Assembly: GCF_009914755.1 (NCBI RefSeq)
Contig: NC_060930.1
DNA from: the human T2T-CHM13v2.0 reference genome, Homo sapiens
DNA length: 64,000 bases
Strand: one strand, 5' to 3'
Each line of letters starts with the position of its first letter. The first letter of the stretch is position 1. Under the pieces are notes generated by a model. The model made no database searches, had not been told where the DNA came from, and was given only the letters and a program-made list of their open reading frames with translations. Below are positions 10,162-28,565 of this stretch, piece by piece. The position numbers and the translations under genes were made by a program.

Positions 10162-10541
10162 TATTAGTCAGCTCAGGCTGACATAAAATACCATAGACTG
10201 GGTAGCTTAAACAACCAAAATTTATTTTCTCACAGTTCTGAAGACTGGAAATCAAGATCAGAGTGCCAGCAGGGTCAATGTCTGGTGAAGTCTCTCTCCT
10301 TGGAGTGTAGATCACTGCCTTTTTACTATGTCCTCATGTGGTGAAGGGAGAGAGAGAGAGAGCAGGCTCTCTGCTGTCTCTTCTCATAAGGGCACTAATC
10401 CCACTGGACAAAGGCCCCATCCTCATGATCTCATTTAACACTAATTATCTTCCAAAGGCCTCATCTCCAATTGCCATAATATTGGGGGTTAGAGCTTCAA
10501 CATATGAATTTGGGGGACACACAAACATTCAGTCTATAACA
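10162..10541 (-). mobile_element. MLT1A-type MaLR solo LTR
   Basis: Runs from tattagtcagctcaggctgacataaaataccatagactgggtagcttaaacaac to gggggacacacaaacattcagtctataaca. Confidence 0.85.
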
Positions 10542-10835
10542 ACAAAGATGACACGGTAGAGCAGTGGAGAAAGGATGGTCTTTTCAATAAATATGTTTAT
10601 GGAAAAAATGTATGTTGATTCTCTACTTCACATCATTCATAACAAATTGTAGATGGATTGTTGATCTAAATGTGATAGGTAAAACAATAGAGCTTCTAGA
10701 GAATGCCTAGGGGAATTTATGATCTTGAATACACCAATATTTCTTAAACTACATACATAAAGTACTAACCATAATGGAAAAAGTTAATTACATATAATAC
10801 AATTAAGAATGTTTGCTGATTTTAAAAAATCTTTC

Positions 10836-10967
10836 AGGTTGCTTGGTGGATACAATATGTGTTGTTCCAGTGATGGATACACTGAAGGCCTTGAATTCGC
10901 CATAGTGCAATATATCAATATAGTTAAATTATACTCATATCCCATGAATTTATACAAATAAAAAAAG
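10836..10967 (+). mobile_element. Short L1 (L1MA/PB-type) 3'-end fragment with A tail
   Basis: gtgatggatacactgaaggcc...tatcccatgaatttatacaaataaaaaaa, flanked by a 12-bp TSD aaaaaatctttc (10824-10835, 10968-10979). Confidence 0.7.
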
Positions 10968-11435
10968 AAAAAATCTTTCCAAAGAATGAAAAAGCAAATC
11001 ACTGAGTACCAGATGAAGTTTGTAATGCATTTCCCTGTAAAAGACTTATATTGACAATGTATAAAGAATCTCTGTAAATAAAAATAAAACAGCTCAATAG
11101 AAAAATAGGCAAAAAATGTAAACAGGCCCTTCATCAAAGAAAATATCCAAGTTATCAGTAAACATGAAAAGTTTTTCAATCTCATTACTCATTAGGGACA
11201 TCAGATTTAAAATCATAGTGAGAGACCGGTAAACACACATGAGAATGGCTAAAATGAAGAAGATTGACAATACCAAGTTTGAGGAGGATATGGAGCAACT
11301 GGGACTCTCATGCATAGCTGGTGAGAGTGTAAATACATATAACCACTATTGAAAGCTGATTGGCAATATCTATTAATGCTGAACATACACATATGCAATA
11401 ATTTATACAATTAAGTGTTCTTGAAAATGTATAAT

Positions 11436-12373
11436 GCAATAATTCTATCTTAGGTATGTGCTCAACACAAATGTGTATATATGTGAGCCAAAGGCACATA
11501 AAATAATCTTCATAGCAGCATTTATTCATAATAGCTAAAAACTGGGAACAACCCAAATGTTCACCAGCAATCATTAACATACACTTGGGATTCCTTAGAT
11601 GGGCTTAGGTGGTTAAGTGTAGGTCATGAAGTTGACTGTGGAACTGTGTGTATATCATATGTGCACAATTTAGGAAAGGCTGTTTTTTTTTTTTTTTTCT
11701 CAAAAAGATCCTTGTCTCAAAAAATGCTAAGAATTCCTGCCTGCATACGAGACCTAGATTTCCATAGTTTTTAAGAAAATTTTAAACTCCTCCTAATTTA
11801 AGCAACTAAGCCCTAGAATGTAATTTGACCTTTTTAATCCTATATTTAGTCTGTTCATAGCTTTCTCAAATCAAGTAGAATATTTAAGAATCTCATCATT
11901 CCTTATTATTAAGGAATTATTACCAAGTGAAATGCAAATGTATCATAGTGAAGCCTAAAAATTAAGTTATAGGCATAAGGCATAGATATACCCCTCTGTG
12001 GTCTACTTGAGAGCTGCATTTGATATGGTGTAAAGTGGAGAGAAATTAGGAGACACTGGGTGAGTGACAAAAGTAGAATATACAATATCTCTACCTCCCA
12101 GTGGTTCTTATCAGGGTGTGACTTGGCCCCCAGGGGACATTTGGTAATATCGGGAGACATTTTTGATTGTCACAGCTAGGAGAAGGGGTACTAATGGCAT
12201 CTAGTGGGTAGAGGCCAGGTATGGTGCTAAATGTCCTACAATGCACAGGACAGCCCAAACCAATTATCCAGCTGAAAATATTAACAATGCTGTGCTTTAG
12301 AAACCAGGCTCCACAGTGATGACAGGTCTGTGTATGGGACACCTCTTGTGCTCCTCTTCAAGTCCTCTTGGCC
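11436..12373. repeat. Inverted duplication, left (ancestral) arm, 938 bp
   Basis: Manual alignment to the reverse complement of 13805-14668 gives 864 aligned bp, 15 substitutions and one 74-bp indel (11653-11726, present only in this arm). The ORF track shows identical peptides on opposite strands (11909..12160- vs 14018..14269+; 12091..12342- vs 13836..14087+). Confidence 0.97.
12099..12308 (+). mobile_element. MER20 (hAT-Charlie), copy in the left arm
   Basis: cagtggttctt, ccccaggggacatttgg, ggcatctagtgggtagaggccagg and cctacaatgcacaggacagccc match the MER20 consensus. Confidence 0.9.
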
Positions 12374-12863
12374 CCACGTGTTAATCCCATGATTGCTGTA
12401 ACACTTTGACCAGCTTGGGCGTGTGCATTCTGAAAGTTACTTGCCTCGCACCTGTGGCATACGTCTCTCGCTTCCTGCTCTGGGACTTCTCTGACATAGC
12501 AGCATGGGCATCCTATGTGGATCCTTTTGGCATTCACTGAAACATTTGCAAACCAGCAGTGTAGGGGATTAAAGCATACTATAGCAACAGGACAGGAGAG
12601 TTGAATTTTTCCTTCTTTTGTCCCCTGGGTAGATAGTTATGAAATGTTTTAATACACTCCAAAGAATTACCTCTGCAATTGAACACCAGTCTCCCTTAGC
12701 AGTAGCCAACTAAATAGCACATCCTTCTGTTGGCTCTTTCTGCTCCCTAGGTTCATTTCTCTTGTCCCTCACTCCTACTTTCTGGGATCACATGCCCATT
12801 AAAGCACCTACATGCAAGTCTTTGACTCAGATTCTGTTTTCTGGGAAACTCAGGATGAAGTGC
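12317..12863 (+). mobile_element. LTR33-like ERVL solo LTR
   Basis: 5' ggacacctcttgtgctcc and 3' cctcactcctactttctgggatcac...actcagattctgttttctgggaaactcag resemble LTR33/LTR16-family ends. Confidence 0.75.
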
Positions 12864-13229
12864 CATGTGTACAGAAGTCCACAGTGAAAAACCAGAAATT
12901 AATGGAAGGGAATATAAAAAAGTTAGAATTTTATGAACATTTGTCTTTTTTCCCTTCAAAGTCCAGCATGAATATACAATGAAAGAGTAAAAAGGGCACC
13001 AGATTCTCAGTGGCACAATAACGGAGCACTCAGAAAGGGCCATTTCTAAAATTGTCCTGTCAGCCAAAGAATTTTCTAATCCTCCTATGGTAGGGGTAAG
13101 GAAAAACAGTGGTGGCTACACAGAAGGAGGAGAAACAAAGAAACTAAGTCAGGGGTTCGAGTAAAAGAGGAAAGTAAAAAGAATATCCTTTGCCTCAGCT
13201 CCTTTAAATGGATTGTGTTATTGTGAGAG

Positions 13230-13390
13230 CTTCAGAATGCTAGAATTTTACTTAGAGGAAACCTAGAATATCATCTAATTAAATTTTCTCTTTTACAGCA
13301 GAGGAAATGAGGTCTGGAGAGGTTAAATGATCTTCTCAAGGTCACTCAGTTGCCTTAATGGCAGAACCAGGACCAGAACTCACTTCTGAA
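13230..13390 (-). mobile_element. MIR
   Basis: ttttacagcagaggaaatgaggtctggagaggttaaatgatcttctcaaggtcac. Confidence 0.7.
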
Positions 13391-13804
13391 AGGGATGGGG
13401 ACACAATCTGATCATGGATTCTAGATCACATACTTCTGTGATTCCGGAGGCAGCCCAGAACTTCTCTTGACATTTTCTAAACTCTTTTTGGAGTTATGAC
13501 GTAGCTAGGATAATACTTTCAGGATACCTTGTCCCAGGTCAACAAGGAGCTAAGATGCTAACAGGAAATAAGAGGAAATGTCAGCTGTGCCTTTCCTTTC
13601 TTGTTAGAGGGTGGCCGTGTTTCTGGCATTTCTTGTTATTCTAGGGACAGTCCCAGTGCTGACTTCTTAAAGTTCCTGTTAAATGGAGAAGACTTAGTTG
13701 ATTAACTTGACCAAGGAGAGTGGTCATAATGATCCCAGTATGTTCTGGGGCTTTTCACTAGTGTTTCCCTCTAAGGCAACTTTGTTCTCAAAGGCAGTGC
13801 CCTT

Positions 13805-14668
13805 GGCCAAGAGGATTTGAAGAGGAGCACAAGAGGTGTCCCATACACAGACCTGTCATCACTGTGGAGCCTGGTTTCTAAAGCACAGCATTGTTAATAT
13901 TTTCAGCTGGATAATTGGTTTGGGCTGTCCTGTGCATTGTAGGACATTTAGCACCATACCTGGCCTCTACCCACTAGATGCCATTAGTACCCCTTCTCCT
14001 AGCTGTGACAATCAAAAATGTCTCCCGATATTACCAAATGTCCCCTGGGGGCCAAGTCACACCCTGATAAGAACCACTGGGAGGTAGAGATATTGTATAT
14101 TCTACTTTTGTCACTCACCCAGTGTCTCCTAATTTCTCTCCACTTTACACCATATCAAATGCAGCTCTCAAGTAGACCACAGAGGGGTATATCTATGCCT
14201 TATGCCTATAACTTAATTTTTAGGCTTCACTATGATACATTTGCATTTCACTTGGTAATAATTCCTTAATAATAAGGAATGATGAGATTTTTAAATATTC
14301 TACTTAATTTGAGAAAGCTATGAACAGACTAAATATAGAATTAAAAAGGTCAAATTACATTCTAGGGCTTAGTTGCTTAAATTAGGAGGAGTTTAAAATT
14401 TTCTTAGAAACTATGGAAATCCAGGTCTCATATGCAGGCAGGAATTCTTAGTATACACAATTTCACAGTCAACTTCAGGACCTACACTTAACCACCTAAG
14501 CCCATCTAAGGAATCCCAAGTGTATGTTAATGATTGCTGGTGAACATTTGGGTTGTTCCCGATTTTTAGCTATTATGAATAAATGCTGCCATGAAGATTA
14601 TTTTATGTGCCTTTGGCTCACACATATACACATTTGTGTTGAGCACATACCTAAGATAGAATTATTGC
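13805..14668. repeat. Inverted duplication, right (derived) arm, 864 bp
   Basis: Reverse complement of 11436-12373. It truncates L1 and LTR33 sequence at its ends and is flanked by a CCTTGGC direct repeat (13801-13807, 14668-14674). Confidence 0.97.
13870..14079 (-). mobile_element. MER20, duplicated copy in the right arm
   Basis: Exact reverse complement of 12099-12308. Confidence 0.9.
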
Positions 14669-14839
14669 CTTGGCTCCCTCCATTCCCCCACTGGGTATCC
14701 AACACCCAAGGTGCACCTAGTAAGGATGCTTTTCTTCTCCTTGTGCTGAGGTCCCAGGTCAGACATTTTATTCTAGTGAGCAAAACAGATATGCTCCTGT
14801 CTTAACCTGGCTCATAGTCTGGTGGAAGAGACAGACATT

Positions 14840-14842
<3 letters not shown>

Positions 14843-14874
<32 letters not shown>
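14843..14874. repeat. (AC)16 microsatellite
   Basis: Read directly from the sequence. Confidence 0.95.
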
Positions 14875-14879
<5 letters not shown>

Positions 14880-15452
14880 CAATCAAGTCTGAGAATTACC
14901 AAGTCCAGAGTGCTGTCGGATCTGACCAGGTTTGGGGTCAGGGAAGGTCTCCCTAGGATGAGGTTTAAGATAAGATACAAAGGACTGAATTCATCAGTAG
15001 GACTAAACTGGCAAAGGATTTTAGGGTTGTGAGGGAGGAAGCAGCACATTTAAAGGCTGAGTGGAGGGAGGGCCTCAAGGAAGTGAAAGAAGCCAGAATC
15101 CAGAAAGCAGACAGGTGTGAGGCTGGCCTGGTCTTAGGAGCCATGGAGACCATGCCAGGAGTGCCACTTTGTTCTTGAGGGCAGTGGATGCCACTGAAGA
15201 GTTTTGAGCAGGTGAGAGCAGTGGTCATATTGGTGTTTCAGAAGAATTTTCTAGATGCAGAATGGAGAGAAGGAACTACATGACAGTGAGTTAGAAGGCT
15301 ACTTGTAGTTTGGGCAAGAGGTATTGGTGGCTTCACTGGGATTGAGGGTAACAAACTCCATGAAGATAAGGCACCTAGAACAGTGCCTCACATATAAGTA
15401 GACTTGATAAATATTCATCGAATGAATGAATGATTGGGTGTAGTATAAAAAC

Positions 15453-15759
15453 TTTTTTTTTTTTTTTTTTTTTTTGTGGCAAGGTCTCATTTTGTTGCCT
15501 AGGCTGGAGTCGAGTGGTGCCATCACAGCTTACCGCAGCCTTGACCTCCCTGAGCTCAGGTGATCCTCCCACCTCTGCCTCCTCAGTATCTGGGACTACA
15601 GGCAGGCACGATCATGCCCAGCTAATTTTTGTATTTTTTTGTAGAGATGGTGTTTCACCATGTTGCCCAGGCTGGTCTCAAACTCCTGGGCTCAAGCAGT
15701 CCACATGCTTTGGCCCCAGAAAGTGCTGGGATTACAAGCATGAGCCACCACACCCAGCT
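15453..15759 (-). mobile_element. AluJ
   Basis: Poly-T followed by a reverse Alu with J-type ctcctgggctcaagcagtcc. Confidence 0.9.
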
Positions 15760-17749
15760 GTGTAAAAATATTTAGGAGGACCTGGTGATTAATCAGAATG
15801 TGGGAGGTGGGAGGTGAGAGGTGAGAGGGAGAGAAGAGGCAGGAAAGATGCTGGGTTTCTGCCATCAGGTAACTGGGTAGATGATAGGGCCAGGAACTGA
15901 GGTGGGAAACGCAGTGAAGGGGACTGGAAATGGAGAGGGTTGTGTATGCAGCTTTGGACTTGACTTACTAAGATGTCTGGGAGGCAGTTGGACATAGTAG
16001 CTCATGAAAGATAATTGTGTTGATTTGGGCATCGTCGTATTATGGATGATAACTGGAGTCATAAGAATACGTAGTGCAGCTCAAGAGGAATGTCTAGAGA
16101 GAAGAGTGCTCTGAAGGATTTCTTGTTAGTGTTGCCCTCTACTTTTCCCATAGCAGGACTATTTTGGCATGCTGTGTCTCATTACATTCCAGAGTAGGGA
16201 TTGGCATAGGGCCCCTTCAGAGAGTCTCTCAACCAATCTTTGCTCTAAGAAATCTAAATAAATATTTAAAGGTGAGAAGAGTGAAGAGTGAAGTAAATTA
16301 TTTTGTTGAAATGTTCTAGTAGGTTCATCTTGCTTCTTTTAACACATTTAATTGAATGCAGTTCTGCATACCCTTCAACCTACTGAACTTGACTTTCTGG
16401 GTGTGACTACAGTTCAGGGTATTGAGGGAAGAAAAGGAGCTGAGGAGGAGAACAAGCAGTGCTCTCTCTGAGTGCTTGGGCCCTCCCAGGTGTCCCTTTG
16501 ACACCCAGTCTCTAGCCTGTCAATTTGCCTCCCCTAGGAGGTGGCCCCACGTGGCCTGCTGCTTGGCAGGACTGGCTGGAGCAGCGAGGAGGGACTTGGC
16601 TTGCTCTTCTGTCATGATGGGCTGCTTGTGCTCCCCTCCAGTGGAGATGCTTACACCTGCCTACTACAGTCACCAAGAACATCTGGCTCCTATGATCCTT
16701 CATGGTGATGGAGCCCTGGGAGCAGGCCAGGCTTGTCCTTGGCCATTTTCTCCTGCACATTGGCCTTTTACACTAGGGGCAGCCATGGGAAGCTCCTTGA
16801 GGCCTTGTTAGTGTCCATGCGTGTCTTGTTAGTCAGTGCATTTGCAGCCCATCATACAGTGCCTGGCACGAAGTTGAGTAAAGAAATGAATCCTCTGTCT
16901 ACCTCTGGGGAGATTGTCAACCACTGTGGGACCCATTAAGTGTAAATATTGGGACAGTCAGATCTCAGAAGGGGAAATGAGCCCTTTCATTAAAGAGCAG
17001 ATGATGGAAATGCTTTTCTTGTTCTGAGGTCCTGTATAAAGCAGCTTGACCTTTTAGTCTTTATATGCTGCCACTTTTGTATCTCTTTGAAGATGGTGCC
17101 CCTCTAGGCAGGGCAAGGCCTCAGAATTGGTTTTCTATGAGTGGTAGGCTTGCTGGAGCACACTTTTTGATCTGACTCCCTTGTCGCTTATCACGTTCAT
17201 TTGTGGACTAGATGCTGAGTAGACTTCAGCTATCTAGGAGAGAGAAGTCTAGCAGACAGCAAATCCATGATTGCAGCATCATTGTCCCAGGACATCTTAG
17301 ATTGCTCAGAGGTTCAGATTGAGGGCCCAGGGATGGGGATACGATTTTAATTGAGCATCTTGTCTATGGCAGCCAGCCAGTGAACATGAGCTATTTGGTC
17401 TGTATTACTCTCTCTTTGCCTTATTGTTGATTTCTCCCATTTTCTCTGTAGGGCTCTATAGGAAAAGGATTGCCTTCTCTGTATTTGATGCAAGTAACAG
17501 ACACCATGGGACTTTGTGGACCATGGGTGTCTTTAGTCAATCTGAACATGCATACTGAGGACTAGTAGGTGTTGGTCAATGTGCCCAGCACTGGCCACAT
17601 GGCTGCAGACCTTGTCTTTCTGCCCAGTGCAGGCAAAGGAGGCTCCTGGCAATTGAGGATATAATTGTGGGCAAAAGAGAAGAAACCTTCCTGATAATTA
17701 ATGACCCACATGGAAATGCGCATGCCTCAGTGCTGATGTAGGGCAGTGG

Positions 17750-18040
17750 AGCAGCACGTTCCAGGAGGCTTCCTCAGAAGTCCAGTCTTGGGAATTCTCT
17801 GTGAAAAGACATGTCCGCTGTTAAATCTGTGAAATATGGCACACTCTCTCTCCTTTTCAAAGATTCTTAATTGTACATTGGTGGAAACAAAATGTCCTGC
17901 TGTAAAAAGCCTGTTGTTTAACTTTGTTTAGCCTGCTATTTTCCATTCATATTTAATCATGGAAGTCTTTTTTAAAAATCACATCCATGTAAGTACCCTA
18001 TGGGCTTAGTGTTCTGTGGAACGTGCTTTTGGAAGTGTTG
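17750..18040. mobile_element. Degenerate hAT-Charlie-type DNA transposon
   Basis: End tagtgttctgtggaacgtgcttttggaagtgttg resembles Charlie terminal repeats; family not resolved. Confidence 0.4.
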
Positions 18041-18789
18041 CATACAAGACTGTGGATTTTCCTTAGTCTGAAGCTCTACCTTTTTCCTTTCCTATTCCAG
18101 TTTCTTAGGGTGATTACATAGGAAAGACAGACTCCACAGTGAACACTGAGAAGCAGAGGCGAGGTTGTCAAAGAAACTTACAAGAAGAAACTCCTTCACT
18201 GGCAAGTCAGTGAAATTATGGGGAAATACTCACATTAATGTCAGGGAGCTGGAGGCACATGTACTTAGTAGTGTCATGTTAAAGAATCCAAGCTCAGCAT
18301 GGTATTCAAGACAGAATTACAATTTTGTGACTTTATGAGTCTCTCCTTTTGCTGTCCTTCTTCATTGGAGTACGGGAGAATAAATGAGGAAGGGACATTG
18401 ACTGTAAAGCAACTTCATTTTGTTTGAATTTGACTCTGGAGTCACCTTCCCCAAGAATGCTGTGGACTTTTCCCTGTCTGCTTTGACTAGAAACACGGGA
18501 AGATGAATACTATGAAATTTCAGTGATTTCTGGATTCGCAACATTTCTACCTTTTGATAATTGATTTCATCTCATTCTTAAATCTGTCCTCTTCATTTCC
18601 ACTGTCACCCTGTAGGTTCAGGACTTCATCCCTTTTCCTCTGCAGCCATTTATTCATCTGTCCATTTATTCCTTCATGTAGCATGAGCACTGTTCTGTGC
18701 AAGGCACTGAACACACAAGAGAGAATGAGACATGGACCCTGCTCTCACTTTGCTTACTGAGGCTTCTAGATGTGGAACTGGATTTCTAG

Positions 18790-19166
<377 letters not shown>

Positions 19167-21729
19167 CTGTCATGTTTTATTGAGAAACATTTGGGAGCTT
19201 CTTATTACCTGTGGAATAGAGACGAGCTGATTCCCTCCCCCTATGCCAAAATGACATCCATGAGACTCCTTGTTCAGGCCCTATCAGCTCCTGTCTAATC
19301 TACTTTTCCCTTCACACAAGCTTGGTCAACTGGATGACTGCAGGATTCTTGCCCATTTCAAGCCTGTCTTCCACTCTCTGGCTCCTGCAGTTCCACTGTC
19401 CTTTCTCTCCTCTTTAACTTCCCCGCCTTCCAAATCCTTCAAGACCCAACTCAAATGCCGTGCTCTCTGGAATGGCTCTCACAACTGTCTGAACCTCTCT
19501 CTTACTGCATTCTGCCTGTCATAAAATGAGCCACACACCTCAGGTCCTATCCAGCTCACATGTAAACATGTAGTTCTTTCTGGAGTCACATTCTTTATAT
19601 CTGTATCTATGTCTATGTCTGTCTTCATAATATGAATGTAAATAATTTAAAATTGGGTAGAATGTTCCGTTAGAAAATTGAAAATTAATTTTAAAGTCTG
19701 TCATTTTTCTGTAATTTTGTATAATATAGGGTCATTCCTTTTACTTATTGGAACCAATTTTTAATTTATGTATAGAATATTTAGATTTTATTTTGGGGTT
19801 AAGTACTACTCTGTTTAGAGAGGAGTGGACTATTTAAATTCTTGAAATAACTTCAAATCTATTTATACAAAAGAAAATTAGGGATAATTTTAGGTACTAC
19901 AAAGACTCATGTAGTATTATGGACCTTTGTCATTTAATTGCATTATCCTTTTAATGAGAGCTAAGTTCAATAAAATTTTATTTTTTCAGACACCACTCTT
20001 TGGGAATTCTTGATAGTTCAGTTACCAAAGTGGCAGACATTTTCAGTTGTTGCTCTGATACTTTTTAAATGAGCAAACTTCTCAGGCACTTAGGAAGATC
20101 CACCCATGTGTGGATAGTTAATGTAATAATTACAAAGAATTCCCATCTATTAATTACAGAATATCTGGCAGTGCAGTGATATATTTGGCAACATCTTGTC
20201 AACTATTAATTCAAGTTAAGTACTTTTTTAAAAGAATAGCTGTAAGTGAGGCTTTTATTAATTCTAATGGCTTTACTCTTAAATAATCTAAGTTAGTGAA
20301 ATTTAACCAGTTACTGAGTTGTTCTTTGTATTCAAGGATAGTGGTTTTACAGATGTCATCCACAGGAGGGGATGTGATTGGAGAGACTGGTGCCTGGTCA
20401 CTGGGCCTCTCCAGATTGCATACAGCTGACACCTACCCTTTTCTTGTGGTTCTAATTGCCACTCGTTCTAAGGAAGGCTCATTTACATATAGAATGTGCA
20501 TATTTAATCGTATTTGATCCTCACCGAAGCCATAGTTAGGGTGGGCATGACCAGTCCTTGATCGACTTACTCTTGTCACACACAACTAGAAGGGGCAATA
20601 TTAGTACTTTCACCAAGGTCCTCTGTCTCCATCTCTGTGCTTCACCACACTGTCTTTCAAATAGTAGCAACTTAGATTTGCAAAGCAATGTACATCTACT
20701 ACCTCATTTGCTTATAAAAAGTCACCCCCTTGAGATTGTCCTAAGTGGATCTGCCTGTTGCTTTTCTTTTCTGGCAATCCTTAGTTATATGCCATTGTCT
20801 GCTGTGTTTCATATTCATACTTAAAAGGCACTCTGAACATTTGACATGTCCTACAGTGTCATCACCCTGTCCACACTGCCTTCCTTTGGCTGCCCTCAGG
20901 TTGCCCTAGCTCTTTCCAAGGCTAGAGATTAGCTAAGTAATATGTCCCAACTCTCCCATCTTTGCCTCTCTACCTTTCTCATTGGAACCCTATCCTCAGC
21001 CCTTCTTCCCATTCCTTGTAAAAACATATTCTTCAGAAAGAATCATTCATTTCAAAGCATAAATCATTACTTACAAGTATATATTGAGCCTCCTTGCTTT
21101 CAGGGAATTGGTGTTTTAATGGTTCATAAGAAACATTTAGCCAAAGAAATGACCTTCTAGTGGTAGAATTTAATCTTAGTGAGCAGCTGAAGGATAATTT
21201 TTTGAAGCTAGGATATTCTTATTGGCACCCTTGAAATTACAGAGGTAGGGGGGTCTCCCATTTCAACCACATGGAAAGCCAGTCTTATCCATGTTCTGCT
21301 GTGAGCCCTGCTCCTTAGAAAAGAGAAGGCTGGCAAGAGTATTGCTTGCCTGTGGGTAGAATAACTGCTTGAGATCCACATATTATTGGGCCTGTCTTAT
21401 CATTTAATGTTTAAGTAGCACTTGCTGGTGCGAGTTATACAGAATGTTTGCAGCAAATCCATGTCTCATAGTCATAAAGAAGTAAAGGCTTGCACCGTGG
21501 GCCTTTAACTTGTTTTTTGAAAATCAATCAACAAATATTGATTAACACTTCAGCTGTCTCCTCAAAGACATTTTGACCTTTTTGATTTCATTTTCTTTGT
21601 CTATTGTTGTGTCACTGAGCAATGTGCTGTGTAAGTTGCAAAATGTGTGACAGCTTTTAGTCCTTTTTGTGGAGAGAGGTCTGTGAGGATGGTTTATAAT
21701 CTTACTGCTTAGAAAAGCTGTGGTCTCTA

Positions 21730-21970
21730 AGGTGTAGTGGTCAAGAGCTTGGGCTCTGGAATCAGATGGCCTGGTCCTCAGTAAGGCTCTGATATGTACT
21801 TATTGTGTGATTAGGAGCAAATTACTTAACATATAAACTCACTTTCCCCATTTGCACAATGGAGATTAATGTTAGTAACTGCCTGGTTGGTGGTGGTTGT
21901 GAAAAAGATTAAATAACATTGAAATGAGCCGTGCATTGTGCGGGCACCTGCGAAGTACTGCTATCATTAT
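21730..21970 (+). mobile_element. MIR
   Basis: gtgtagtggtcaagagcttgggctctggaatcaga and ctcactttccccatttgcacaatggagat. Confidence 0.75.
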
Positions 21971-23194
21971 GTTCTTTGTGGTTTAGTGGTCCCAGTTTTC
22001 TCTGGGTCTCCTTGTATGTTCACTCCTAGAACACAGGGAATTGTACAGAAACTCCTGGTGGACTCTGTAGAAACTTTAAGTTAGATTGCTTTAAAGTGTT
22101 TGGAATTGAATTATTTCAAAAAGGAATTTCTTTTTTGCAGAAGTTATAAAGAAAGCAAACTTCAGTTTCTTGCCTGCTTTCCAGGCCTTGACTTTATTCT
22201 GTTTTTAAATATAGCTGCTGCAACAAGTAGATTGACACAGTGCAGCCCGGCCATGGGCCATTTCATGTCATTTCATGGCATGGGGAACACACAGGAGTCT
22301 CCTCAGACTGCCTTGTAACTTGTCTCAAATATAATCCAGGTCTTTCATTGATTATCTGGATGTGTGCATTCTAGGAACTGTTGGAGGAGATAGATGTCCC
22401 AGCAAATACTTTCGGAATTTCCCCTCAGTCTTGGACTCCCATGAAAGTTACAAAGGGGTGGTAAATCTACAGTTTAATTGCCTGGAGTCCATTAATGCCC
22501 TACTGATTTTCTTTGGGCACTGGTCAGGTAAGTTAGTATACATGTTTATAGCCAATTTAAATGCCCCAAGAAGATCACTGACCAATGGCCATCCTTATTT
22601 TTAAAAGTCACCAGATAAGGCAATTTCTCAAACAACTTCAGCAGGGCATTCCAGAAATGCTTGATCTCATACTTCTCTGCACTATAATAAATACAATTTT
22701 GATTTCATCTTGGAGTAATCTGAACTTCTGGGATGTAAAGTAGAAAAATGTTCTATAGCTCTTGGAACATTAGATTGGAAAGAAAATGCCTTAAACATTC
22801 TGCTTAATTAAATTCGGTACAAATTTTTCATGATTAATTGAAATATGCTTATTTTGACTGATACATATTTATATGATATTATCATATGAAAATTATGTTA
22901 TACAAACCGTTCTCTTTGGGAATGTGATTTAATGCTGTAAACATTTTACATTTGTTGTATTGTTTATTATAAAAATGCACAGGCTGATGGCTGTAAGGTA
23001 ATGTCATGTAAAAATCTGTTATGTGAATCTTCTCTGAGGTAATCTCAAGTCTCTAATGGCACAGACCGTTAGCCAAAATGTAAGACAGGTAATTAGGTTT
23101 TCCCTAGCTTGAAGAAATATTTTTTTAAGTAGAAAAAAAAATTTAAAGCAGATCAAGTTAGAAAAGTTAAAGTGCTGAAACCTTCTATTTTGCC

Positions 23195-25144: not shown

Positions 25145-25187
<43 letters not shown>

Positions 25188-25204
25188 ACACACACACACA
25201 CACA
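25145..25204. repeat. (TC)n(CA)n compound microsatellite
   Basis: Read directly from the sequence. Confidence 0.93.
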
Positions 25205-26185
25205 GTCACTATCAATTGGGAGGACAGAGAAAACTCAAGATGTAGCAAAAGCCGTTAAGAGGCAACAAGGAAATATTACTTAGGTGTCTACTTAAAGTTT
25301 CCTTTTATTCACCCCCACCCACCCCTCAGAGGCCAGTTTTTCCCAGACCTGAATATCACCGTCATAATGTTTGTCATAACTTCTGACCACCTGCACTATG
25401 ACTTACTGAATATATTTTACTAATTGACTCACTTTAAAATCCTTTGTTTTAAGCAGTAGTATTTGTGATATCATGGGCTCATTATGCTAGTTAAATTTGT
25501 TTTCTTCTCATACAAAGGAAAAGAAATACAATTTAAATAATGGAAATATTTGCAAACCACCTAAATTCATTCTGAGCAACCCCATGACATGACATGAGGG
25601 GCTGGGAGGACCACCAATCTGGCTGAGAATGATCTGGCATTCCCATTACCATCCCTCCATCCAGGGCCCAGGAACCACATCACATGGAGGAGAATTTCAA
25701 TCAGGCCTGCATCTCCCTTAGGACACCAGTGCCGGAAGGCTGCATTGTCAGAGTCTGTTCAGCGAGCCAGGCTTGTCCCTTTCCGTTGCCAGAATCTGGC
25801 CACGCACATCTTTCCTTTTTGACTAAACGTGTTGCTTGGGAATTATTACATTGCAAGAATAAACAATAGCACATATCATTTAACAGTAATAGGGAACAGG
25901 CCATGGTTGAGCCTGGCGTCTGGTCAAGGTTCACATGAGGGTGTTCCATTTGTAAGTTAGCACCCTACAAATTGTCCCACCCAGTGCAGATCCTGCAGGC
26001 TTTCACAGGACCTTTGAAGAAATGGGTTATTTTACAAGCTTCGTTAGTGCTGGGGCTGGTTTAACTAGGCAGATGAAGCTTTTTTTTTTTTTTTTTTAAA
26101 CCAGGCTAAGAAGCCCTAGGAGCCCTTGTGGCTCTGCAGTCATGCTCTGGTTTTTAAGTAAATGTCTTTTGGAAACTTAGGAGCC

Positions 26186-28529: not shown

Positions 28530-28565
28530 TGTGTGTGTGTGTGTGTGTGTGTTTTTTTTTTTTTT
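28530..28565. repeat. (TG)11 followed by T14
   Basis: Read directly from the sequence. Confidence 0.93.

What the first reader, a model, noticed from the sequence alone, without database searches (positions are those of the whole stretch)
11436..14668. Non-Alu inverted duplication of about 0.9 kb around a 1.4-kb spacer: candidate invertible intronic cassette
Seen: arms 11436-12373 and 13805-14668 are reverse complements (864 aligned bp, 15 substitutions, one 74-bp indel) around a 1431-bp spacer. Each arm is a mosaic of L1 end, old MITE, MER20 and LTR33 start, so this is a local duplication rather than two independent transposon insertions. Established: closely spaced, highly identical inverted repeats are substrates for NAHR-mediated, often recurrent, inversions that short reads miss. 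Inference: the spacer (most of LTR33 plus a MIR) may be orientation-polymorphic. The layout shown here is the ancestral one, because both L1 and LTR33 continue through the left arm.
Basis: partly seen in the sequence, partly recalled or inferred. Interest (0 to 1): 0.8.

Follow-up and report, generated by a model that had tools for sequence, protein, structure and literature searches.

The report
Old inverted duplication in SOBP intron
A 0.9-kb stretch of the first intron of the human SOBP gene was copied long ago in reverse orientation 1.4 kb downstream; the two copies could in principle flip the piece between them, but no inversion is listed here in the catalogues that could be checked, so it looks like an ordinary genomic relic.

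Summary
Arms 11433-12373 and 13805-14671 are reverse complements: 867 aligned bp, 16 mismatches, one 74-bp indel and a 1431-bp spacer.

The arm occurs only twice in the whole T2T genome. An L1-like element crosses the left arm's outer edge, and an old LTR-like element crosses its inner edge. The left arm is therefore the source, the right arm is an inserted inverted copy, and CHM13 carries the ancestral spacer orientation.

The insert is flanked by a 7-bp direct repeat, CCTTGGC, with 3-bp microhomologies. This fits a replication template switch.

Divergence is bimodal: 15/382 in the outer part against 1/485 in the inner part (p=4e-5), with a 473-bp identical tract. This points to an old duplication of roughly 20-40 My and a later arm-to-arm gene conversion.

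The inversion-polymorphism inference has no support. The locus is absent from a 612-candidate catalogue of inverted-repeat (IR) inversions and from the 65-genome HGSVC3 inversion table. Only 6 of 319 (1.9%) previously untested inverted duplicate pairs were polymorphic. The 1,019-genome list and ape orthologues could not be checked.

Verdict: a real structure of an ordinary kind, of low interest.

The parts
11433..12373 (+). Left arm (941 nt), the source copy of the inverted duplication
   Evidence: Repeats continue through both of its edges.
13805..14671 (-). Right arm (867 nt), an inserted reverse-complement copy of the left arm
   Evidence: Its outer flank is not L1-like, and the flank has no other copy in the genome.
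12374..13804 (.). Spacer of 1431 nt between the arms, in ancestral orientation in CHM13
   Evidence: It holds the body of the LTR-like element (to about 12874) and a second old dispersed repeat at 13286-13387.
11650..11723 (+). 74-bp segment present only in the left arm; it contains a T17 run. Whether it was inserted on the left or deleted on the right is undetermined.
   Evidence: No outgroup copy was found.
10967..11566 (+). L1-like fragment (ORF2 C-terminal region) that runs across the left arm's outer edge at 11433
   Evidence: 8 dispersed loci examined: 2 align continuously across 11433, 3 have collinear matches on both sides, and 3 stop before the edge; the only PDB hits for 11516-11605 are LINE-1 ORF2p residues 1201-1216 (E=0.8, weak).
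12096..12322 (+).
   Evidence: 39 dispersed matches at 75-84% identity from 4768 first-look candidates, all within query 664-890.
12331..12874 (+).
   Evidence: L011 aligns in one piece over 12331-12803 (E=2.5e-24). L034 aligns over 12331-12387 and 12743-12830. L031 aligns over 12404-12874.
11889..12361 (+). 473-bp tract identical between the arms (partner 13817-14289), read as a gene-conversion tract
   Evidence: longest identical tract is 473 bp. Mismatches are 15/382 outer against 1/485 inner (Fisher p=3.7e-5).
13801..13807 (+). First copy of the 7-bp direct repeat CCTTGGC at the inner junction of the insert
14668..14674 (+). Second copy of the 7-bp direct repeat CCTTGGC at the outer junction of the insert

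Best explanation
This is an old local inverted duplication in intron 1 of SOBP. About 0.86-0.94 kb of sequence (the end of an L1 fragment, about 0.5 kb of sequence with no other copy in the genome, a roughly 210-bp dispersed repeat, and the first 43 bp of an old LTR-like element) was copied in reverse orientation and inserted 1.43 kb downstream. The most likely mechanism is two microhomology-guided template switches during replication or repair. These left a 7-bp target duplication (inferred). The outer third to half of the arms has diverged by about 4%, which puts the event at roughly 20-40 million years ago, before the human-chimpanzee split (inferred from assumed mutation rates). The spacer-proximal 473 bp are identical. 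This is best explained by one later arm-to-arm gene-conversion event, so the arms do meet in recombination (inferred). In CHM13 the spacer sits in its original orientation (shown). The pair could support NAHR inversion of the spacer, but nothing indicates that this segregates in people, and the spacer carries no exon. It is most likely a neutral structural relic. In SOBP pre-mRNA the arms would pair into a long intronic RNA duplex (computed, not observed).
For: Structure. Only two copies in the 3.1-Gb assembly. Source arm and ancestral orientation: L1-like homology crosses 11433 in 5 of 8 dispersed loci (2 continuous, 3 as collinear pairs, also 4 collinear pairs among the rows). LTR-like homology starts at 12331 and crosses 12373|12374 (L011 and L034). 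Junctions: CCTTGGC occurs at 13801 and at 14668; GGC is shared between the insert start and the downstream flank, and TGC between the insert end and the spacer end. The ends of the insert carry no poly-A. Heterogeneous divergence: 15/382 against 1/485, Fisher p=3.7e-5, binomial p=4.3e-5, 473-bp identical tract. Ages: outer K=4.0% gives 20 My at 1e-9 per site per year or 40 My at 0.5e-9; inner gives 1-2 My. No catalogue entry. Base rate of 1.9%. RNA duplex of the inner 650 nt: -1229 kcal/mol, 646 pairs.
Against: No ape or second human assembly could be examined, so the age rests on a molecular clock applied to 16 mismatches and on assumed rates. The template-switch mechanism is inferred from short motifs. 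CCTTGGC occurs 8 times on the + strand of the window, so part of the junction repeat could be coincidence. A staggered break with capture of a fragment would leave a similar scar. Gene conversion is inferred from a single pattern, and no polarity could be assigned. The sequence that the insert interrupted (13480-13804 and 14672-14990) has no other copies in the genome, so the pre-insertion join could not be verified. The catalogue negatives are not a genotyping of this site: Porubsky 2022 and Ebert 2021 were not held and entered only through the merged catalogue; the 1,019-genome list was not reached; and the HGSVC3 supplement file is flagged as 'cut when stored'.
Confidence: 0.75

Rival explanations
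1. The spacer is orientation-polymorphic in present-day humans through NAHR between the arms.
For: The arms are inverted and close together, share a 473-bp identical tract, and show a conversion-like pattern, so they do recombine. A validated inversion of very similar build exists on the same chromosome arm: HsInv0061 has IRs of 654/656 bp at 99.7% identity and a 1674-bp spacer. Its probe maps 804 kb upstream. [quoted passage not shown]
Against: There is no chromosome 6 entry at 107.4-107.7 Mb (hg38) among 612 candidate IR inversions merged from five discovery studies of 195 people plus paired-end predictions. The only chromosome 6 inversion at 100-119 Mb in the HGSVC3 65-genome table is HsInv0061. 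Only 6 of 319 (1.9%) previously untested inverted duplicate pairs were polymorphic in 54 people. HsInv0061, whose IRs are more alike, has a single origin and no recurrence.
Confidence: 0.06
2. The duplication is young (a few million years old), and the clustering of mismatches in the outer part reflects local mutation-rate differences rather than old age plus gene conversion.
For: Overall divergence is only 1.85%, which gives 9 My at 1e-9 per site per year. The outer part is AT-rich (GC 0.33 against 0.43).
Against: A 19-fold difference in mismatch density (p=4e-5) is far beyond known regional rate variation over 0.9 kb. CpG content cannot explain it: there is 1 CpG in each part.
Confidence: 0.1
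3. The hairpin has a use: the long intronic RNA duplex acts in SOBP RNA processing or editing, or the duplicated dispersed repeat acts as a paired regulatory element.
For: The inner 650 nt would pair almost perfectly (646 pairs, -1229 kcal/mol). One preprint counts only 2,018 predicted human dsRNAs that are longer than 300 bp and more than 96% paired, 88% of them intergenic (section 10 read). A RefSeq model exon, 11196-22527, covers the whole structure (hub annotation).
Against: There is no Rfam match. No paper links SOBP with ADAR and dsRNA (0 papers). The outer arm has decayed at a neutral-looking rate. No expression or editing data were available.
Confidence: 0.05
4. The pair is an assembly artefact, or two independent transposon insertions.
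For: None was found.
Against: The arms differ by 16 substitutions and a 74-bp indel. Each arm joins at least three unrelated repeat pieces in the same order. The mosaic occurs nowhere else in the genome.
Confidence: 0.01

Closest known systems
HsInv0061, a validated human NAHR inversion on 6q21 (Giner-Delgado et al. 2019, PMC6748972, supplementary data read; hg38 chr6:106,720,678-106,723,661 in PMC13629690 Table S1)
   Same: It has sub-kilobase inverted repeats made of unique sequence plus transposon pieces (654/656 bp) around a short spacer (1674 bp). It lies on the same chromosome arm; its probe maps 804 kb upstream of this locus.
   Different: HsInv0061's IRs are 99.7% alike, against 98.2% here. 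Both of its orientations have been seen in people (minor allele frequency 0.01; the O1 allele is rare). It has a single origin, and O2 is ancestral in chimpanzee, gorilla, orangutan and rhesus. Only one orientation has been seen for the SOBP pair, in CHM13. The two share no sequence.
Inverted segmental-duplication pairs used as inversion candidates (UCSC SD track definition as quoted in PMC13629690, Methods passage)
   Same: They are intrachromosomal inverted low-copy repeats of at least 90% identity, not made of one transposon alone, and close together.
   Different: The arms are 867 and 941 bp, below the 1-kb floor. This explains why the pair was never enrolled as a candidate. Only 1.9% of such enrolled pairs proved polymorphic.
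Sex-chromosome palindromes with arm-to-arm gene conversion (recalled; the title of Hallast et al. 2013 on a Y palindrome was seen in the reference list)
   Same: The arms are inverted around a spacer and homogenised by conversion, and inversion of the spacer is a rare by-product.
   Different: Those arms are tens of kilobases or more long, more than 99.9% alike along their whole length, and carry genes. Here the arms are under 1 kb, only about half is homogenised, and there is no gene content.
Polymorphic inverted duplications and replication-based complex inversions in long-read surveys (PMC12350158, Inversions section passages)
   Same: These are short inverted copies inserted near their source. 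That survey reports 277 inverted duplications with a median length of 284 bp, and attributes its complex inversions to a replication-associated process such as MMBIR.
   Different: Those are young and segregate in the population. This one is older, at 1.85% overall and about 4% outer divergence, and it is larger than their median.
L1 twin-priming inversions (about 85% of inversions under 2 kb in the abstract of 10.1101/2021.12.20.472354)
   Same: Small size, and L1 sequence is involved.
   Different: Twin priming inverts part of a single new L1 insertion. Here a mosaic of several unrelated elements is duplicated, with no poly-A at either end of the insert.

Membership tests
NAHR-mediated polymorphic inversion | Two homologous repeats in inverted orientation flank the segment | tested here: met
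   867 bp at 98.15% identity, with a 1431-bp spacer.
NAHR-mediated polymorphic inversion | An uninterrupted identity tract long enough for homologous recombination (a few hundred bp; threshold recalled) | tested here: met
   473-bp identical tract at 11889-12361.
NAHR-mediated polymorphic inversion | Both orientations are observed among individuals | tested here: inconclusive
   The locus is not listed among 612 candidates or in the HGSVC3 65-genome table. No haplotype assembly could be inspected directly, and the 1,019-genome list was not reached.
NAHR-mediated polymorphic inversion | Breakpoints of the alternative allele lie inside the repeats | not testable with these tools
   No alternative allele is available.
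Segmental duplication (at least 1 kb, at least 90% identity, not a single transposon) | Length of at least 1 kb | tested here: not met
   The arms are 941 and 867 bp.
Segmental duplication (at least 1 kb, at least 90% identity, not a single transposon) | Identity of at least 90%, and not made of one repeat family | tested here: met
   Identity is 98.15%. The arm is a mosaic of at least three unrelated pieces plus sequence with no other copy.
Template-switch (FoSTeS/MMBIR-type) inverted duplication | The copy is inserted close to its source in inverted orientation | tested here: met
   Source 11433-12373 and copy 13805-14671.
Template-switch (FoSTeS/MMBIR-type) inverted duplication | Microhomology of a few bases at both junctions | tested here: met
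   GGC at the inner junction, TGC at the outer junction, and a 7-bp CCTTGGC duplication. The motifs are short, so a chance match is not excluded.
L1 twin priming or retro-insertion | A poly-A tail next to a target-site duplication, with the inserted sequence being a single L1 or transcript | tested here: not met
   There is no A or T run at either end of the right arm. The insert is a multi-element mosaic.
Palindrome with arm-to-arm gene conversion | Arm identity is higher than the age of the duplication predicts, in tracts | tested here: met
   0.2% divergence over 485 bp against 3.9% over 382 bp (p=3.7e-5).
Programmed invertible cassette (site-specific recombinase switch) | Short specific recombination sites plus a dedicated recombinase, and a promoter or coding segment inside | not tested
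   No scan for recombinase or promoter elements was run. The spacer shows only old dispersed repeats, and the hub annotation lists no selected-transcript (NM_018013.4) exon in it. No such system is known in humans (recalled).

The most novel reading that the evidence does not exclude
The SOBP intron-1 pair is a still-active mini-palindrome. Its arms keep exchanging sequence, so that the 1.4-kb spacer flips at low frequency in the human population or somatically. This would have been missed because the arms fall just under the 1-kb segmental-duplication floor used to enrol candidates. In SOBP pre-mRNA the arms would form one of the few long, almost perfect, non-Alu RNA duplexes found inside a gene.
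Probability: 0.07. Interest if true: 0.45.

Novelty: new member of a known kind. Interest (0 to 1): 0.2.

Why it matters
If the spacer did flip, this would add a small, hard-to-detect inversion inside SOBP. It would also show that inverted repeats just under 1 kb, which candidate lists leave out, deserve screening. As it stands, the locus is a clean worked example of three things. It shows how a short inverted duplication arises, with junction scars still readable. It shows how flanking transposon continuity reveals which copy is the source and which orientation is ancestral. And it shows how a single conversion tract can make an old duplicate look young. No functional consequence for SOBP is indicated.

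Tried and rejected
1. HsInv0061 looked at first like the same locus, because one of its tag SNPs lies at hg19 107,830,610. It is a different locus: different IR sizes and repeat content; its probe is absent from the window and maps 804 kb upstream. I fetched 10 kb around the probe, but no 654-bp inverted pair lay inside it. A side-by-side anatomy of HsInv0061 was therefore not done.

2. Rfam scan of 10500-15500 at E<=1: 0 matches.

3. Pfam scan of seven stop-free L1-frame pieces: 0 families for all 7. PDB sequence search of three pieces: 2 gave nothing, and 1 gave only weak LINE-1 ORF2p hits.

4. tblastn of the L1-frame pieces against the window found no credible second L1 3' end.

5. Whole-genome searches for other copies of 11560-12100, 13480-13804 and 14672-14990 found only the local sequence. 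Three things therefore stay untested: the 'old MITE' label, the polarity of the 74-bp indel, and the pre-insertion join.

6. Paper searches: SOBP + inversion + inverted repeats gave 0 papers. SOBP + ADAR + dsRNA gave 0 papers. SOBP + inversion gave 40 papers, of which 15 were listed and none concerned this locus; many use SOBP for 'spread-out Bragg peak'.

7. Supplements of PMC13721702 and PMC11838218 had no entry for the locus, but only small parts of their files were held as text.

8. Porubsky 2022 (PMC9563103) and Ebert 2021 (PMC8026704) are not held.

Full report
**Observation.** The window holds a large inverted repeat at the stated place. The repeat finder gives two pairs. One is 11724-12373 / 13805-14454 (650 nt, 99% complementary, 1431 nt apart). 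The other is 11433-11652 / 14452-14671 (220 nt, 96%). A gapped alignment joins them into 867 aligned columns with 16 mismatches (98.15% identity) and one 74-bp segment found only in the left arm, at 11650-11723. Of the 16 mismatches, 14 are transitions. BLAST of 11000-15200 against the window finds no further copy. A search of the whole 3.1-Gb assembly with the left arm returns only the two local copies over more than about 230 bp. The divergence and the indel also argue against an assembly artefact.

**Composition of the arm.**
- In the whole-genome search, 39 dispersed matches at 75-84% identity, drawn from 4768 first-look candidates, all fall in query 664-890. This marks a dispersed repeat of about 210 bp at window 12096-12322. 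No repeat library was on hand to test the name.
- The outer part is L1-like. The only PDB sequence hits for the frame 11516-11605 are LINE-1 ORF2p residues 1201-1216 (E=0.8, weak). A genome search with 11180-11600 gave 1212 first-look candidates.
That label is untested.

**Which arm is the source.** I aligned eight dispersed L1-like loci (L014-L021) sensitively to 10900-11720.
- Two align in one piece from about 11025 or 11107 through the arm edge at 11433 to 11566.
- Three have collinear matches on both sides of the edge.
- Three stop before it.

Four collinear pairs on both sides of the edge are also visible among the rows. At the inner edge, a chromosome 7 copy (L011) aligns in one piece over 12331-12803 (E=2.5e-24). 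A chromosome 6 copy (L034) aligns over 12331-12387 and 12743-12830. So an old LTR-like element starts 43 bp inside the left arm and runs on into the spacer. Both flanking elements therefore continue through the left arm. The flank beyond the right arm is not L1-like and has no other copy. The left arm is the source, the right arm is an inserted inverted copy, and in CHM13 the spacer is in its original orientation. After an inversion, the L1 continuation and the LTR continuation would sit on different arms.

**How the copy was made.** The insert begins GGCC..., and the sequence after the insert begins GGCT.... The insert ends ...TTGCCTT, and the spacer ends ...GTGCCCTT. The 7-mer CCTTGGC stands at both junctions, at 13801 and 14668. 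Neither end of the insert has an A or T run, so retro-insertion and L1 twin priming do not fit. A pair of microhomology-guided template switches (GGC on leaving, TGC on returning) that re-copied a few bases of the target fits the scars. This is an inference from short motifs: CCTTGGC occurs 8 times on the + strand of the window. Capture of a fragment at a staggered break would look similar.

**Age and arm-to-arm exchange.** Fifteen of the 16 mismatches lie in 11433-11888 (382 aligned bp). Only one lies in 11889-12373 (485 bp) (Fisher p=3.7e-5, binomial p=4.3e-5). The longest identical tract is 473 bp, at 11889-12361. The outer divergence (Jukes-Cantor distance K=4.0%, 95% interval 2.2-6.8%) corresponds to about 20 My at 1e-9 per site per year, or 40 My at 0.5e-9. 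The inner part corresponds to 1-2 My (the rates are assumptions). CpG content does not explain the contrast, as each part has one CpG. The simplest reading is an old duplication followed by one gene-conversion event of roughly 0.5 kb next to the spacer. That would mean the arms do pair and exchange sequence, which is the precondition for NAHR.

**Is the spacer orientation-polymorphic?** This could only be approached through print.
- A 2026 study assembled 612 candidate IR-flanked inversions from three kinds of source: 1528 calls in five long-read, Strand-seq or optical-mapping studies of 195 people; paired-end predictions; and inverted segmental duplications of 1-50 kb (PMC13629690, passages). 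Its Table S1 has no chromosome 6 entry starting with 1074, 1075 or 1076, that is, hg38 107.4-107.7 Mb.
- The HGSVC3 inversion table (65 genomes, hg38 coordinates) has a single chromosome 6 entry between 100 and 119 Mb, chr6-106720699-INV-2930. This is HsInv0061.
- The hg38 position of the SOBP pair is estimated at 107.51-107.53 Mb. One estimate comes from the T2T position of an HsInv0061 probe. The other comes from my recall of SOBP's hg38 start. The two agree within about 10 kb.
- In the 2026 study only 6 of 319 (1.9%) inverted duplicate pairs without prior evidence were polymorphic in 54 people, against 155 of 612 overall (section 7 read in full).
- HsInv0061, 804 kb upstream, has the most similar build: 654/656-bp IRs at 99.7% identity and a 1674-bp spacer. 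It is a real but rare inversion with a single origin and no recurrence.

I therefore put the chance that the SOBP spacer segregates in both orientations at a detectable frequency at about 6%.

The limits on this are as follows. The pair was never enrolled as a candidate, because its arms are under 1 kb. Porubsky 2022 and Ebert 2021 were not held and entered only through the merged catalogue. That survey reports 257 balanced inversions, 45 of them bordered by inverted repeats. No ape sequence was available.

**Other readings.** As RNA, the inner 650 nt of the arms would pair almost perfectly (646 pairs, -1229 kcal/mol by duplexfold). One preprint counts only 2,018 predicted human dsRNAs longer than 300 bp and more than 96% paired, 88% of them intergenic (PMC11838218, section 10 read). 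On those criteria the SOBP hairpin would fall in an uncommon class of duplexes inside genes. There is no Rfam match. No paper links SOBP with ADAR and dsRNA. No editing data could be consulted, so this stays a side note. The spacer holds only old repeats and no exon of the selected transcript, so 'cassette' overstates it.

**Verdict.** This is a real, well-preserved, old local inverted duplication. Its origin, source arm and ancestral orientation can all be read from the sequence, and it carries a likely conversion tract. It is a new instance of a known kind of structure. The interesting claim, an invertible intronic segment, is unsupported by the catalogues that could be reached and has a low prior. 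Interest 0.2.

Noticed in passing
window 11196-22527: The hub annotation lists an 11.3-kb exon of another SOBP transcript model that covers both arms and the spacer. If that model is real, the near-perfect 650-867-bp duplex would sit in an exon rather than an intron, which would be unusual. It may simply reflect unspliced pre-mRNA reads.
   Followed up: no
L039 (G000 chr6:107,893,281), 804 kb upstream of the finding: The validated polymorphic inversion HsInv0061 (654/656-bp IRs, 1674-bp spacer) lies on the same chromosome arm. CHM13 is typed O2, the ancestral and common orientation, in PMC13629690 Table S3. Its IR pair was not inside the 10 kb fetched around the probe.
   Followed up: partly
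window 14840-14886, 25156-25215 and 28530-28565: Short simple-repeat stretches just right of the right arm match similar low-complexity runs elsewhere in the window.
   Followed up: no
window 11650-11723: The 74-bp segment specific to the left arm contains a run of 17 T followed by an A-rich tail-like motif. Whether it was inserted on the left or deleted on the right is open.
   Followed up: partly
window 13286-13387: A second old dispersed repeat in the spacer gives about 7 matches at 74-86% identity elsewhere in the genome. The name was not tested.
   Followed up: no
SOBP gene as a whole: [quoted passage not shown] 2020). Only the citation was seen. Whether those somatic breakpoints lie near this inverted repeat is unknown.
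   Followed up: no
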